A stretch of DNA of 64,000 bases from Escherichia coli (lineage in GTDB: Bacteria; Pseudomonadota; Gammaproteobacteria; Enterobacterales; Enterobacteriaceae): assembly GCF_009931435.1 (NCBI RefSeq), contig NZ_CP043414.1; one strand, 5' to 3'. Under the pieces are notes generated by a model. The model was not told where the DNA came from, did no database searches, and was given only the letters and a program-made list of their open reading frames with translations. Every line of letters starts with the position of its first letter. Position 1 is the first letter of the stretch. The position numbers and the translations under genes are program-made. Below are positions 4,830 through 10,330 of this stretch, in pieces.

Positions 4830-5461
4830 AACTTCCGGAGATCCCTGAATTCCCGCTTCCCACCTGGATGAATAAAGGCGAGCCGTTAACGCTGGCACAT
4901 TCATCGCATCGCTACTGGGAAAAGGTATACAGCTGGCTGACGTGGCCACTACAGCAGATTGATGTCGACACCTGCGCAGAGCCTTTACTTAACCTGCTGG
5001 CTTATCAGCGCAATATCACCCGATTTAAAGGGGAGCCGGTTTCGTTATTTCGCTTAAGGGTGAAACACGCGTTTATTAACGCTCAGGACTCGGGCGAACG
5101 CGCCGGATTCGAACGCATCTTTAAGCGTCTTGGCGTGGGAGACGTTAAAACACTGGAACGGCAGCTGCAGCATGACTGGGACGTTATTTTACTGCGCATT
5201 AATGACACCCAGTTAAGTGAAAACAATGCGCTGATGATGCAGCTCGTGCGCCAGTATGGCCGTACCTGCAGGCGCTATTTCTTTCAGGTAATCAATACAA
5301 CCACCGCCCGGCTGACAGCCAGCACATTCGACGGCCATTACAGGTATCACACAGCAGAAGCAACGGTGAGAAAGGACACCATCTGGTTAACCGCTTCGCT
5401 ACAGGCAGGACATTACGGCCTGTCCGTGGAACATTACACATTACAGGCAGATGAAGCATGA
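4826..5461 (+). CDS. tail protein I-like (P2 gpI / Mu gp48-like)
   Basis: 211 aa; GTG start overlaps J stop (GTGA); position between baseplate J and the tail fibre. Confidence 0.55.
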   Translation: MKLPEIPEFPLPTWMNKGEPLTLAHSSHRYWEKVYSWLTWPLQQIDVDTCAEPLLNLLAYQRNITRFKGEPVSLFRLRVKHAFINAQDSGERAGFERIFKRLGVGDVKTLERQLQHDWDVILLRINDTQLSENNALMMQLVRQYGRTCRRYFFQVINTTTARLTASTFDGHYRYHTAEATVRKDTIWLTASLQAGHYGLSVEHYTLQADEA

Positions 5462-7158
5462 GCACGATTATTACTGAACAGTACGAACACTGGTGCGCAA
5501 ATCAAATCATCAGTGGAAAACCTGCGCGCCCGGATACATTTGTTTTTGCATATATTCCGGGACAGGATGAATCCGCAGAGATCCCCCGCGATGAGATACT
5601 CCCTGATGAATCCATGATTCAGTATCGTGCGCCGGTCACCCAGTACGGCCACCTGTCGCCGAACGCGACCGCGTTTTCCATCATTCTGGACACGACAGTC
5701 GGCGACTTCGAATACAACTGGATCGGTCTGCTGAACGAAGAAAGCGGCGTGCTCTGCATGATTGCACACACACCTCGTCAGCAAAAAATTAAAACAGCGA
5801 ACGGCGTGCAGGGAAACAACCTGATCCGCACATTTTCCATGGAGTTTGACGGCGCAGCCGCAGCAATGCATATCGATGTCAGCGCTGATGTCTGGCAGAT
5901 TGATTTCACTGCACGCCTTGCAGGAATGGATGAGGCCCGCCGGCTGCTGGCGTTTGATCACTACGGTGAAGCCGCTTTTCTGGGGGATGGTTTTCAGGTC
6001 AGCTATCAGGACGGTACCGCTACTGTTGCCGCCGGCGTGGGTTATGTGGGAGGTCTGCGCGTCAGTCTGCGCGAACCTTACAGCCTGCCGGCTGCGGTCG
6101 GGGATACCCTCTGGATTGATGCAAGCTGGCAGGGATTTGTTACTGGCGAATGGAATACCGTTTTTACGTTCTGCGCCCGCCAGGAACATGCGTCTTATAC
6201 AGACGGTAACGGCTTCCGACACTTTGTCGCGCCACTTGCAAAAATGACAGGAGACGGCCCACAGGACCTGCGCCCGGAGACACCCGACGAAGAACAAAGC
6301 AATGCACTGGCAGAGCACGAAAAATCCCGCCATCATCCGGACGCAACACTGCAGGAGAAAGGCTTTGCGCAGTACAGCAACTCCACCGACAGCGACGCAG
6401 AAGACCGCGCCGCCACATCAAAGGCAGTAAAAGCCGCAATGGATAAAGCAAAAGACGCTGTTGAGCGCGACGGCGACACCATGACCGGGGAGCTGAAAAT
6501 CCGTGGTGTTAATGCACTGAGGATTTTCAACGAAGCTTTTGGCCTGATTTTTCGTCGTTCGGAAGAGTGCCTGCACCTTATCCCTACCAGTGAAGGTCAG
6601 GGCGAGAATGGCGATATTGGCCCCCTGCGTCCGTTCACTATTAATTTGCGGACGGGTGAAGTTTCCATGTTACACGCAGTATCTGTTGGCGGTGGTTCGA
6701 AAGTTAACGGTGCGTTGGGTATCGGCGTTCAGAATGCGCTGGGCGGAAACTCAATTGCTTTCGGGGATAACGATACCGGCCTGAAACAGAATGGTGATGG
6801 CCTGCTGGATGTTTATGCCAATAGCGTGCATGTGTTGCGTTTTCAGAGTGGCAGCATTCAGAGTAATAAACCTGTAAACGTTACCGGGCGGGTAACACCG
6901 TCAGACTACGGAAACTTTGATGCCCGTTACCAGACCAAAACAGGCGGCGTGCAGGATGTGCGTTATGGTTCCGAAATGTATTACAACCCGGGAGGTAACC
7001 AGATATCCTGGACATTTCGCTCACCTTCAGGCCATGGATTATCTGGTATTAATGTGCAGGAAACCGGAAGTAATTCGGCAGATAACATCGGCGGCGTGTA
7101 TTACCGACCGCTTCAGAAACTGATTAACGGCACCTGGTATAACGTGGCGAGTGTTTAA
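5458..7158 (+). CDS. tail fibre protein (fibre 1)
   Basis: 566 aa; N-terminal domain shared with the second fibre; Gly-rich C-terminal half; followed by a Tfa-type chaperone. Confidence 0.8.
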   Translation: MSTIITEQYEHWCANQIISGKPARPDTFVFAYIPGQDESAEIPRDEILPDESMIQYRAPVTQYGHLSPNATAFSIILDTTVGDFEYNWIGLLNEESGVLCMIAHTPRQQKIKTANGVQGNNLIRTFSMEFDGAAAAMHIDVSADVWQIDFTARLAGMDEARRLLAFDHYGEAAFLGDGFQVSYQDGTATVAAGVGYVGGLRVSLREPYSLPAAVGDTLWIDASWQGFVTGEWNTVFTFCARQEHASYTDGNGFRHFVAPLAKMTGDGPQDLRPETPDEEQSNALAEHEKSRHHPDATLQEKGFAQYSNSTDSDAEDRAATSKAVKAAMDKAKDAVERDGDTMTGELKIRGVNALRIFNEAFGLIFRRSEECLHLIPTSEGQGENGDIGPLRPFTINLRTGEVSMLHAVSVGGGSKVNGALGIGVQNALGGNSIAFGDNDTGLKQNGDGLLDVYANSVHVLRFQSGSIQSNKPVNVTGRVTPSDYGNFDARYQTKTGGVQDVRYGSEMYYNPGGNQISWTFRSPSGHGLSGINVQETGSNSADNIGGVYYRPLQKLINGTWYNVASV

Positions 7159-9758: not shown

Positions 9759-10330
9759 TGAAAATAATCGACATAAAGGCGATGAAATACCTGGAAGACG
9801 GGTCTGTTTCCTGTGAAGTGTTGTTTGGAGGGCGGGCTGATTATATTCCTTATCGTGCAGTGGAAAATGATTCTGCTGCATCAGGCCAGCGGGTATGGGG
9901 AACACTGATGAGCGGTGAGTTTGGTGAAATCATCCCCTTCACTGTAACAGCAGAGATGCTGGACAAAGAAAAAGAACTGAAAAAAGAGGAAATCAGGCGC
10001 TGGCGAACAGAACAGGAGGCGCAGCCGTTCACATTCGAATGGAACAGCAGCACATGGAATGGAGGAAAATCCTCACTGGAACGCTTATTCCCGGCAGTGA
10101 TGGCAGCAAAATCTGGTGTGGCACACAATGCCACAGTATGGAGTGATGCAAATAACCAACAAATTAAATTGTCACAACAAAAGCTGGAAGAACTACTTAC
10201 GGCAATGGTGCAGGCTCAGGCTGCACGCAACGATGAGATTTACCTGCGCCAGCGTGAGATGAAAAACACGCTGGCCACACTGAATAACATTGCTGCAATT
10301 AGGGCATTTCAGGTGGGCAAAGCAGAATGA
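9758..10330 (+). CDS. tail fibre assembly chaperone for fibre 2
   Basis: 190 aa starting MKIIDIKAMKY; ATG overlaps fibre 2 stop; coiled-coil-like C-terminus. Confidence 0.5.
   Translation: MKIIDIKAMKYLEDGSVSCEVLFGGRADYIPYRAVENDSAASGQRVWGTLMSGEFGEIIPFTVTAEMLDKEKELKKEEIRRWRTEQEAQPFTFEWNSSTWNGGKSSLERLFPAVMAAKSGVAHNATVWSDANNQQIKLSQQKLEELLTAMVQAQAARNDEIYLRQREMKNTLATLNNIAAIRAFQVGKAE

What the first reader, a model, noticed from the sequence alone, without database searches (positions are those of the whole stretch)
5458..10330. Two complete tail-fibre/chaperone cassettes in tandem with shared N-termini and unrelated distal domains
Fibre 1 (566 aa) and fibre 2 (679 aa) share a recognisable N-terminal baseplate-attachment domain but have different C-terminal halves, and each is followed by a different chaperone type. 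Both are on the same strand with no invertase or inverted crossover sites, so this is not a G-segment-type invertible switch. It implies simultaneous dual receptor specificity or a fossil of fibre-module swapping.
Basis: seen in the sequence. Interest (0 to 1): 0.5.

Follow-up and report, generated by a model that had tools for sequence, protein, structure and literature searches.

The report
Two-fibre tail module in a prophage
An E. coli prophage related to phages HP1 and P2 carries two complete tail-fibre genes side by side, each with its own helper protein. The second fibre is a maintained, highly swappable extra receptor-binding slot rather than a dead remnant, which is a modest new variation on a familiar phage strategy.

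Summary
Window 5458-10330 holds fibre 1 (566 aa), a Tfa-type chaperone, fibre 2 (679 aa) and a DUF4376 chaperone. All four lie on the + strand and are translationally coupled, inside the late tail operon of an HP1/K139/ESSI-2-like Peduoviridae prophage.

- **Shared N-terminus.** Both fibres begin with a PF12571 "tail-collar fibre" N-domain (30% identity, E 3e-22). Everything after about residue 145-157 is unrelated, and so are the two chaperones.
- **No inversion switch.** There is no invertase and no crossover repeat.
- **Not a fossil.** The same gene order occurs in about 45 of 5426 complete E. coli genomes, in 21 IMG/VR prophage contigs and in Yersinia kristensenii. Fibre 2 is an intact ORF wherever the contig is complete. 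Its N-domain has dN/dS of 0.10-0.24, and its distal part comes in about a dozen or more length variants (285-842 aa).
- **Which fibre is ancestral.** Fibre 1 is the orthologue of the single fibre of HP1 and SI7. Fibre-2 N-domains form their own long-branch PF12571 subfamily, found only in this second slot.
- **Precedent.** Rac-SA53, pPE4 and apparently phiP27 pair the same two distal modules in the same order, but there the two fibres' N-termini are unrelated to each other.

The most likely reading is that both fibres are made and mounted, giving two receptor specificities. This is inferred, not shown. It is a new variant of a known kind, of moderate interest.

The parts
3642..4829 (+). Baseplate J/gp47-like wedge protein. 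Context: part of the platform to which the fibres attach.
   Evidence: PHROG 6, baseplate wedge subunit, E 1.8e-62. RefSeq annotates it as 'baseplate J/gp47 family'.
4826..5461 (+). gpI-like baseplate/tail protein (211 aa). Its stop overlaps the fibre-1 start as ATGA.
   Evidence: PHROG 1228, E 2e-81. Junction sequence read. Alignments with relatives.
5458..7158 (+). Fibre 1 (566 aa), the orthologue of the single tail fibre of HP1-like phages.
   Evidence: 44% identical over 358 aa to the Salmonella phage SI7 fibre and 36% over 343 aa to HP1 orf31. Many PHROG tail-fibre families match.
5458..5928 (+). Fibre 1 N-terminal PF12571 tail-collar (baseplate attachment) domain, residues 1-157.
   Evidence: PF12571 E 5.2e-29. 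98-99% identical across the nine closest prophages aligned (72% to L008), with dN/dS 0.02-0.12 in most informative pairs.
6475..7155 (+). Fibre 1 distal receptor-binding part, of the Mu S / P2 H type (residues ~340-566).
   Evidence: Matches Mu tail fibre protein S, 5yvq, E 2.6e-19 over residues 340-565. 79% identical to the tail1 distal part of Rac-SA53. This segment is mosaic among sister prophages.
7161..7712 (+). Chaperone 1, a Tfa/Caudo_TAP-type tail fibre assembly protein (183 aa).
   Evidence: PHROG 136, E 1.5e-56. The Yersinia counterpart carries PF28596 and PF02413. 84% identical to the pPE4 tail fibre assembly protein.
7719..9758 (+). Fibre 2 (679 aa), an intact second tail fibre.
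   Evidence: Uninterrupted ORF. Annotated as an intact CDS, WP_050484014.1, in NZ_OU342919. Many PHROG tail-fibre families match.
7719..8150 (+). Fibre 2 N-terminal PF12571 domain (residues 1-144), belonging to a distinct 'second-slot' subfamily.
   Evidence: PF12571 E 1.1e-8. dN/dS is 0.10-0.24. It forms a monophyletic long-branch clade, at most 37% identical to 137 other representatives. It has 5-aa and 6-aa deletions relative to fibre-1 types. The AlphaFold2 model has pLDDT 88.6.
8250..8630 (+). Fibre 2 knob-like domain, copy A (residues 178-304).
   Evidence: 33% identical to copy B, E 3e-18. The domain recurs 1-3 times in other fibre-2 variants and in Rac-SA53 tail3.
8637..9044 (+). Fibre 2 shaft segment shared with many phage fibres (residues ~307-442).
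   Evidence: PHROG 7032, 2631, 8713 and 454 match residues 307-442. Chain 9d93_La 'tail collar fibers gp4' matches residues 341-403.
9057..9464 (+). Fibre 2 knob-like domain, copy B (residues 447-582).
   Evidence: The AlphaFold2 model has pLDDT 78 and gives only weak fold matches to pyocin R1/R2 fibre and phi812 baseplate chains (E 0.15-0.4).
9465..9755 (+). Fibre 2 C-terminal tip (residues 583-679). It is presumed, not shown, to be the receptor-binding end served by chaperone 2.
   Evidence: Fibre 2 residues 175-656 align to Rac-SA53 tail3 at 48% identity, and both are followed by homologous DUF4376 proteins. tblastn hits fall in side tail fibres of Rac-SA53, phiP27 and SerU-LTIIb.
9758..10330 (+). 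Chaperone 2, a DUF4376 protein (190 aa). TAATG overlap with fibre 2 and ATGA overlap with the next gene.
   Evidence: PF14301 E 2.8e-12. PHROG 1141 E 1.3e-68. 52-57% identical to the protein that follows the second fibre in Rac-SA53, phiP27 and pPE4. DUF4376 is the chaperone domain of Alteromonas phage V22 gp27 and A5 gp9 (PMC10579305).
10327..13281 (+). Three downstream baseplate genes: HP1 orf33-like (10327-11040), HP1_ORF34-like (11012-11587) and the orf35-like baseplate/hub protein (11584-13281). They are transcribed through the fibre cassettes.
   Evidence: PHROG 1677/31292, 1398 and 2258. Homologues follow the fibre chaperone directly in SI7 and HP1. No promoter-like site and no convincing terminator-like site lies between 5458 and 13281.

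Best explanation
The region is the receptor-recognition module of an HP1/K139/ESSI-2-like temperate myovirus (Peduoviridae). This clade has acquired a second, permanently installed tail-fibre slot.

Proposed working, with each step marked as shown or inferred:
1. Both cassettes are transcribed as part of the single late tail operon. The coupling signals are shown; transcription is inferred.
2. Each fibre is folded by its own chaperone. Fibre 1 has a Mu S / P2 H-type tip and uses the Tfa chaperone. Fibre 2 uses the DUF4376 chaperone. This is inferred from family membership.
3. Each fibre docks on the baseplate wedge through its own version of the PF12571 N-terminal domain. This is inferred.
4. 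The virion therefore presents two different receptor-binding tips. This is inferred.

Fibre 1 is the ancestral fibre. Fibre 2 carries a diverged paralogue of the attachment domain fused to distal parts that are exchanged by recombination with other prophages, including side-fibre modules of Rac-SA53/phiP27-type phages. The second slot thus behaves as a plug-in position for new host specificities.

A secondary guess is that the diverged N-domain uses a docking surface of its own rather than competing with fibre 1.
For: **Anatomy and coupling.** gpI/fibre 1 overlap as ATGA. Fibre 1 to chaperone 1 has a 2-nt gap. Chaperone 1 to fibre 2 has a 6-nt gap with an AAGAAG Shine-Dalgarno-like motif. Fibre 2/chaperone 2 overlap as TAATG, and chaperone 2/next gene as ATGA. 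No promoter-like site and no convincing terminator-like site lies inside. Baseplate genes conserved in every relative examined lie downstream.

**Conservation of the arrangement.** 45 of 5426 complete E. coli genomes hold the chaperone-1/fibre-2 junction, against 42 that hold the gpI/fibre-1 junction, so essentially every member of the clade has both. The order J-I-fibre 1-Tfa-fibre 2 is identical in every locus that carries a fibre-2-type N-domain: the E. coli genome loci examined, 21 IMG/VR contigs and Yersinia kristensenii. Fibre 2 is an intact ORF in every locus not cut by a contig end. This includes a prophage (L008) whose gpI-fibre 1 region is only 73% identical at the DNA level.

**Selection.** Fibre-2 N-domain dN/dS is 0.10-0.24 at dS 0.16-2.4.

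**Ancestry.** Fibre 1 is 44% identical to the SI7 fibre and 36% to the HP1 fibre over ~350 aa. SI7, HP1 and three other lineages with a PARPD-type N-domain have one fibre only.

**Distinct subfamily.** Fibre-2 N-domains are monophyletic, at most 37% identical to any other type, and have two deletions. By my placing the alignment on the secondary structure, both deletions fall in loops. The AlphaFold2 model is confident, with pLDDT above 93 for residues 1-130.

**Modular exchange.** Fibre 2 occurs in about a dozen or more lengths, 285-842 aa. Sequence identity stays high through the Tfa C-terminus and the first ~100 nt of fibre 2, then collapses.

**Chaperone identities.**

**Precedents for two co-displayed fibres.** Sf14 shows two fibre sets on a Mu-like baseplate by cryo-EM (PMC11821841). 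Rac-SA53 and pPE4 have the same tandem of distal modules.
Against: There is no expression or virion-composition data. All evidence is comparative.

No phage record in the INPHARED collection searched carries two PF12571 fibres. The dual-fibre clade is therefore known here only as prophages, and none has been shown here to be inducible.

No solved structure contains a recognisable PF12571 domain. The best fold match is a haloarchaeal virus tail chain. The docking site is therefore unknown.

No extra baseplate gene accompanies the second fibre. The longer gpI C-terminus seen in dual-fibre prophages also occurs in a single-fibre relative. Nothing positive therefore supports a separate docking site.

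The Shine-Dalgarno-like motif of fibre 2 is weak.

Some variants split fibre 2 into two polypeptides (285 + 352 aa in L002; 200 + 340 aa in Yersinia) or lack a DUF4376 gene. Either could be decay in those lineages.
Confidence: 0.72

Rival explanations
1. Both fibres are functional but compete for the same six wedge docking sites. Particles would then carry a stochastic mixture, or a burst would contain a mix of particle types. This would be bet-hedging without a DNA switch.
For: Both N-domains belong to one Pfam family and keep a common core: E10, W12, PARPD, Y-[DN]-W-I, the LC motif, K104, G107, R112 and W134-Q135. The dual-fibre clade has no additional baseplate or adaptor gene compared with single-fibre SI7 and HP1. 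The gpI C-terminal extension is not specific to dual-fibre prophages.
Against: The two N-domains are only ~33% identical. Fibre 2 has two deletions that I place in loops, and it sits on a long separate branch. Between E. coli and Yersinia it has diverged faster than fibre 1 (57% against 77% identity). This pattern fits a different interface better than a shared one. This is an argument, not a test.
Confidence: 0.25
2. The two fibres act in sequence rather than in parallel. One would mediate reversible first contact and the other irreversible binding or triggering, as with the long and short tail fibres of T4.
For: Fibre 1 keeps a conserved ~340-aa proximal part and a Mu S-like tip. Fibre 2 has a different shaft and knob repeats, so their reach differs. 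The BASEL study proposes successive use for phages that have one conserved and one variable fibre (PMC11990801).
Against: Both distal parts are mosaic and variable among sister prophages. A purely mechanical or triggering fibre is expected to be conserved. Single-fibre relatives infect without a second fibre.
Confidence: 0.15
3. Fibre 2 and its chaperone are a non-functional relic of past module swapping. They would be carried along because they lie inside an essential operon.
For: PGAP flags fibre 2 as a partial pseudogene in several genomes. Some variants are short or split. The Shine-Dalgarno-like motif is weak.
Against: The ORF is intact in every complete locus among more than 30 examined, across length variants. 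dN/dS is 0.10-0.24 with dS up to saturation. The PGAP flags disappear in other annotations of essentially the same DNA. The arrangement persists from E. coli to Yersinia. The distal modules are actively exchanged.
Confidence: 0.03

Closest known systems
Tail modules of HP1-like Peduoviridae: Haemophilus phage HP1 orf27-35, Vibrio phage K139, Cronobacter phage ESSI-2 and Salmonella phage SI7 (Irrigatiovirus).
   Same: Same gene order: tape measure, DUF2590, baseplate J, gpI-like, PF12571 fibre, fibre chaperone, orf33-like, ORF34-like and orf35-like baseplate protein. Protein identities are 25-64%.
   Different: These phages carry one fibre and one chaperone. The window clade has a second fibre and usually a DUF4376 chaperone, inserted between the Tfa gene and the orf33-like gene.
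Invertible tail-fibre segments: Mu G segment (S-U / S'-U'), P1 C segment and related P2-family switches.
   Same: There are two alternative distal fibre specificities, each with a cognate chaperone. The fibre 1 tip is homologous to Mu S and chaperone 1 is of the Tfa family.
   Different: Here there is no invertase, no inverted crossover sites and no opposed orientation. Each fibre is a complete gene with its own N-domain, so both can be made at once. According to PMC11821841, Mu expresses only one set at a time.
Rac-SA53, Actinobacillus phage vB_Apl-pPE4 and Stx2e phage phiP27: tail1-tail2-tail3-tail4.
   Same: In Rac-SA53 and pPE4 the order is the same: fibre with a Mu S-like tip, Tfa, a second fibre with knob repeats, then a DUF4376 protein, placed directly after baseplate J and a gpI-like gene. 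Distal parts are 48-79% identical and chaperones 34-84% identical to those in the window. phiP27 matched the fibre-1 distal, fibre-2 distal and chaperone-2 queries but its locus was not inspected.
   Different: In those phages the two N-termini are unrelated to each other and to PF12571. The N-terminus of tail3 is PF08400, 'prophage tail fibre N-terminal'. The window clade solves attachment of the second fibre with a paralogue of the first fibre's own attachment domain.
Shigella phage Sf14 (Mooglevirus), two long tail fibres gp52 and gp53.
   Same: A simple Mu/P2-class baseplate is shown by cryo-EM to carry two different fibre sets at once (PMC11821841). This is the physical precedent for the model proposed here.
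   Different: Sf14 is a virulent phage of another lineage. No sequence relationship was tested here, and whether its two fibres share an attachment domain was not examined.
DUF4376 tail fibre chaperones of Alteromonas phages V22 (gp27) and A5 (gp9).
   Same: Chaperone 2 carries the same Pfam domain and the same position, immediately after its fibre gene.
   Different: Only the domain is shared. Capping or chaperone activity was not tested for the E. coli protein.

Membership tests
PF12571 tail-collar fibre proteins (P2 H / HP1 orf31 class) | An N-terminal ~150-aa Phage_tail_fib domain at the very start of the protein. | tested here: met
   Fibre 1 residues 3-157, E 5e-29. Fibre 2 residues 3-144, E 1e-8. 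A profile of both types finds 1579 cluster representatives; in the 150 listed the domain starts within residues 1-3.
PF12571 tail-collar fibre proteins (P2 H / HP1 orf31 class) | The gene lies directly downstream of baseplate J and the gpI-like gene. | tested here: met
   Met for fibre 1, with an ATGA overlap with gpI. Fibre 2 lies one cassette further downstream.
HP1-like Peduoviridae tail module | Conserved order and homology of the tape measure, DUF2590, J, I, fibre, chaperone, orf33, orf34 and orf35 genes. | tested here: met
   The rest of the prophage in L001 has a P2-family capsid, portal, terminase and Ogr.
Invertible fibre switch (Mu G / P1 C / Hin-Gin-Cin type) | A serine invertase gene next to the fibre genes. 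| tested here: not met
   None is annotated in the whole prophage of L001 or L007. No invertase-sized ORF lies between the cassettes.
Invertible fibre switch (Mu G / P1 C / Hin-Gin-Cin type) | Inverted crossover repeats flanking oppositely oriented alternative distal exons that share one constant N-terminal part. | tested here: not met
   The longest inverted repeat is 23 nt at 78%. Both fibres are on the + strand and each has its own N-domain.
Tfa / Caudo_TAP tail fibre assembly proteins | A profile match, and a position immediately 3' of a fibre with a Mu S / P2 H-type tip. | tested here: met
   PHROG 136, E 1.5e-56. The fibre 1 tip matches Mu S, 5yvq. The Yersinia counterpart carries PF02413.
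DUF4376 tail fibre chaperones | A PF14301 domain in a ~190-aa protein encoded immediately 3' of its fibre. | tested here: met
   PF14301 at residues 71-176, E 2.8e-12. TAATG overlap with fibre 2.
DUF4376 tail fibre chaperones | Required for folding of the cognate fibre. | not testable with these tools
   This needs co-expression experiments.
Dual-fibre virions (Sf14-like, or T4 long plus short fibres) | Both fibre proteins are physically present on one particle. | not testable with these tools
   This needs virion proteomics or cryo-EM. Only conservation and coupling support it.

The most novel reading that the evidence does not exclude
The minimal HP1/P2-class baseplate of this clade carries twelve fibres, six of each kind. 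Fibre 2 would use a paralogous, fast-evolving PF12571 attachment domain that has specialised for a second docking surface on existing wedge proteins, with no dedicated adaptor gene. The slot would work as a natural plug-and-play position, defined by a conserved recombination junction (Tfa C-terminus plus the first ~35 codons of fibre 2). Into it, distal modules from unrelated phages, including siphovirus side fibres, would be swapped.
Probability: 0.35. Interest if true: 0.55.

Novelty: new variant of a known kind. Interest (0 to 1): 0.35.

Why it matters
Phages with two receptor-binding proteins are common. For the P2/HP1 class, however, the textbook options are a single fibre or an invertase-driven choice between two.

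A clade that hard-wires a second, co-transcribed fibre shows another route to a broader or shifting host range in temperate phages of Enterobacteria. It does so using a diverged copy of the same attachment domain.

If both fibres are mounted, the fibre-2 N-domain (about 145 aa) would be a ready-made handle. It could be used to add a second specificity to P2-like delivery particles or tailocins.

The finding also corrects a recurrent RefSeq mis-annotation, in which fibre 2 is labelled a 'shikimate transporter' pseudogene.

Tried and rejected
1. **gpI C-terminal extension as a second docking site.** Dual-fibre prophages have gpI of 208-212 aa, against 174-197 aa in SI7, HP1, L009 and L010. A single-fibre relative (L041) also has a 211-aa gpI with the same insertion. 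The correlation therefore fails.
2. **Solved structure for the N-domain.** No PDB sequence matches, even with a profile. Foldseek gives one significant hit, a Haloferax virus HFTV1 tail chain (E 3e-4), plus weak hits to A511 gp105, the phi812 baseplate arm and neck proteins. This is not enough to infer a docking mode.
3. **Fold of the repeated knob domain.** The model is moderate (pLDDT 78), and matches to pyocin R1/R2 fibre and phi812 baseplate chains are only sub-significant (E 0.15-0.4). No receptor class can be inferred.
4. **Word-indexed protein searches.** Searches with the fibre-2 N-domain and with the C-terminal part (knob B plus tip) returned only a few close, mostly partial E. coli entries. 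The exhaustive representative search was needed.
5. **DNA homology between the two fibre genes.** None was found that could drive recombination or deletion.
6. **Origin of fibre 2.** Fibre 2 shares the PARPD, LC and Y-[DN]-W-I motifs with a 'PARPD-type' fibre-1 clade. The NJ tree puts fibre 2 on a long branch with the midpoint root next to it. Duplication within the clade is plausible but not demonstrated.
7. **Literature.** Five full-text searches found no description of tandem PF12571 fibres in Peduoviridae. That library lacks most subscription journals, so the absence is weak evidence.

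
Full report
**What is there.** Window 1-~13,300 is the tail half of a prophage. The + strand carries, in order:
- a tape-measure gene (1216-3312)
- a DUF2590 gene
- baseplate J (3642-4829)
- a gpI-like gene (4826-5461)
- fibre 1 (5458-7158, 566 aa)
- a Tfa-type chaperone (7161-7712)
- fibre 2 (7719-9758, 679 aa)
- a DUF4376 protein (9758-10330)
- three further baseplate genes, ending at 13281

The fibre region (5458-10330) is 100% identical to E. coli FHI_NMBU_10 and MB07081 and 99.9% identical to UR21/11-869. In those genomes the full prophage has a P2-family head, an Ogr-type regulator and an HP1-type tail, and sits next to raiA-bamD. 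By the orf35-like baseplate protein, the closest phage relatives are SI7/SW5, ESSI-2 and its variants, a Yersinia phage, HP1/HP2, phiO18P and K139, at 32-47% identity.

BLASTP of the two fibres gives one real HSP (30% identity, E 3e-22), confined to the N-terminal ~145-157 residues. Pfam finds PF12571 at the start of both. The two chaperones are unrelated. One is Tfa/PHROG 136 and the other is DUF4376. DUF4376 is the chaperone domain described for Alteromonas phages V22 and A5 (PMC10579305). The fibre 1 tip is homologous to Mu fibre protein S (5yvq, E 2.6e-19), which fits a Tfa-type partner. The two genes share no DNA repeat and no meaningful inverted repeat, and the prophage has no invertase. 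All junctions are tight or overlapping: ATGA, a 2-nt gap, a 6-nt gap, TAATG and ATGA. No promoter-like site and no convincing terminator-like site lies inside.

**The pseudogene flag is an artefact.** PGAP splits fibre 2 into a 'tail-collar fibre, missing C-terminus' fragment and a partial 'shikimate transporter' in several genomes. Essentially the same DNA (99.9% identical) is annotated as one 679-aa CDS in NZ_OU342919, and the ORF in the window is uninterrupted. The flags reflect partial alignment of a mosaic protein to reference proteins.

**The tandem defines the clade.**
- In 5426 complete E. coli genomes, 45 hold the chaperone-1/fibre-2 junction and 42 hold the gpI/fibre-1 junction.
- In every locus that carries a fibre-2-type N-domain (the E. 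coli genome loci examined, 21 IMG/VR contigs and one Yersinia kristensenii genome) the order J-I-fibre 1-Tfa-fibre 2 is the same. Fibre 2 is intact in every locus not cut by a contig end.
- This includes a prophage (L008) whose gpI-fibre 1 region is only 73% identical at the DNA level.
- By contrast SI7, HP1, two other E. coli HP1-like lineages and three prophages whose fibre N-domain is the closest relative of fibre 2 all have one fibre and one chaperone.
- No phage record in the INPHARED collection showed two copies.

**Which fibre is the addition.** Fibre 1 aligns with the single fibre of SI7 (44%) and of HP1 (36%) over ~350 residues, covering the N-domain and the proximal shaft. Fibre 2 shares only the N-domain, at 25-34% identity, with every single-fibre type tested. 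Fibre 1 is therefore the ancestral fibre.

An exhaustive profile search finds 1579 cluster representatives with this N-domain; in the 150 listed it lies at the N-terminus of fibres of very varied length. In an NJ tree of the best 149 plus the loci, all fibre-2-type domains form one clade on a long branch, at most 37% identical to anything else. They lack 5 and 6 residues relative to the other types. When I place that alignment on the confident AlphaFold2 model, both deletions fall in loops between strands.

Fibre 2 shares the PARPD, LC and Y-[DN]-W-I motifs with the fibre-1 type of its own wider clade. This suggests an old duplication followed by fast divergence, but the tree cannot be rooted well enough to show it.

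**Selection and mosaicism.** The fibre-2 N-domain has dN/dS of 0.10-0.24, with dS from 0.16 to saturation. The fibre-1 N-domains of the nine closest prophages aligned are 98-99% identical, with dS of 0.16 or less.

Sliding identity shows four zones:
1. a conserved backbone through gpI and the proximal fibre 1
2. a variable fibre-1 tip and Tfa N-terminal part
3. a re-conserved junction (Tfa C-terminus plus the first ~100 nt of fibre 2, 84-97%)
4. progressive decay through the fibre-2 N-domain and collapse beyond ~8150

Fibre 2 occurs in about a dozen or more lengths, 285-842 aa. Some variants have no DUF4376 gene. Some are split into two polypeptides: 285 + 352 aa in the widespread L002 type and 200 + 340 aa in Yersinia.

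In the window variant, the distal part contains a ~125-aa knob-like domain twice (33% identity, E 3e-18). The same domain appears one to three times in other variants and in Rac-SA53 tail3. Its fold could not be assigned with confidence.

**A parallel in another tail lineage.** Rac-SA53 and pPE4 carry tail1-tail2-tail3-tail4 directly after a baseplate J gene and a gpI-like gene. This is a Mu S-like-tipped fibre, a Tfa, a knob-repeat fibre and a DUF4376 protein. Distal parts are 48-79% identical, and some DNA patches 82-89% identical, to the window. phiP27 matched the same distal and chaperone queries, but its locus was not inspected. In Rac-SA53 and pPE4 the two N-termini are unrelated to each other, and the N-terminus of tail3 is PF08400. 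The pairing of these two distal module types therefore recurs, while the way the second fibre is anchored differs.

**How it most likely works.**
- *Shown:* two intact, coupled, conserved fibre-chaperone cassettes inside one late operon; a specialised second-slot attachment domain under purifying selection; and frequent exchange of the distal parts.
- *Inferred:* both fibres are made, each is folded by its own chaperone, both dock on the wedge through PF12571, and the particle carries two receptor specificities.

Physical precedent exists in Sf14, where cryo-EM shows two fibre sets on a Mu-like baseplate (PMC11821841). Whether the two fibres use separate sites (my preference, because of the long-branch divergence and the deletions) or compete for six sites cannot be decided. 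There is no extra baseplate gene. The one candidate adaptation, a longer gpI C-terminus, also occurs in a single-fibre relative. No solved structure contains this domain.

**Verdict.** The 'fossil' alternative is rejected, and 'dual specificity' is plausible but untested. This is a new variant of a familiar theme, multi-RBP phages, within a well-known tail type. It is of moderate interest, mainly as a natural two-fibre P2/HP1-class chassis and as a clean example of an attachment-domain paralogue dedicated to a hypervariable second slot.

Noticed in passing
window 15330-16799 (+), within the low-GC stretch ~15000-16800: A 489-aa ABC/AAA-type ATPase matches the PADLOC candidate defence protein HEC-04 over its full length (E 6e-204), with weaker matches to AriA, GajA, PtuA and Old. 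It lies in the variable cargo slot at the right end of the prophage. Strains with essentially identical fibres carry Hok/Gef, Com and a DNA methyltransferase in that slot instead.
   Followed up: partly
L001 22262-23773, L004 8256-9290, L003 8262-9626 (equivalent to window 7719-~9230): RefSeq/PGAP repeatedly splits the intact fibre 2 ORF into a 'partial' tail-collar fibre pseudogene and a partial 'shikimate transporter' or 'phage tail protein' pseudogene. This is a systematic mis-annotation of a mosaic fibre.
   Followed up: yes
L036 (Rac-SA53) 3293-8992; L037 (pPE4) 3293-7948: A different myovirus-type tail lineage carries the same pair of distal fibre modules and chaperones in the same order. 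Its two fibre N-termini are unrelated, and tail3 starts with PF08400. pPE4 is recorded as an Actinobacillus phage yet shares 89% DNA identity with E. coli prophage fibre modules.
   Followed up: partly
L002 8262-10202; L038 8001-9721: In some clade members the second fibre is two polypeptides. One is a short PF12571 protein (285 or 200 aa). The other is a separate 352-aa (PHROG 8291, unknown function) or 340-aa knob-domain protein. This is either a two-component fibre or incipient decay. The L002 type is common in human isolates from the Netherlands.
   Followed up: partly
window 7526-7826: The Tfa C-terminal part plus the first ~35 codons of fibre 2 stay 84-97% identical among prophages whose flanking fibre-1 tip and fibre-2 distal parts are unrelated. 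This looks like a conserved recombination junction for cassette exchange.
   Followed up: partly
window 4826-5900 compared with 5458-10330: The window is 100% identical to strain FHI_NMBU_10 across the fibre region but only 98.8% identical across gpI and the start of fibre 1. Its cargo region also differs. The window therefore comes from a different strain, and the fibre block looks recently shared by recombination.
   Followed up: no
window 4826-5461 (C-terminal ~25 residues): gpI of the dual-fibre clade has an ~11-15-residue insertion and a short C-terminal tail that are absent from SI7, HP1, L009 and L010. Both features are present in one single-fibre relative (L041), so they are not specific to the second fibre.
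   Followed up: yes
window ~17500-64000: The remainder of the window appears to be ordinary E. coli chromosome (raiA, bamD, rluD, yfiH, clpB, an rrn operon with tRNA-Glu at 26369-26444, then kgtP and beyond). Gene names are inferred from ORF sizes and order compared with the annotated locus L001. The prophage is therefore inserted next to raiA, as in L001 and L007.
   Followed up: no
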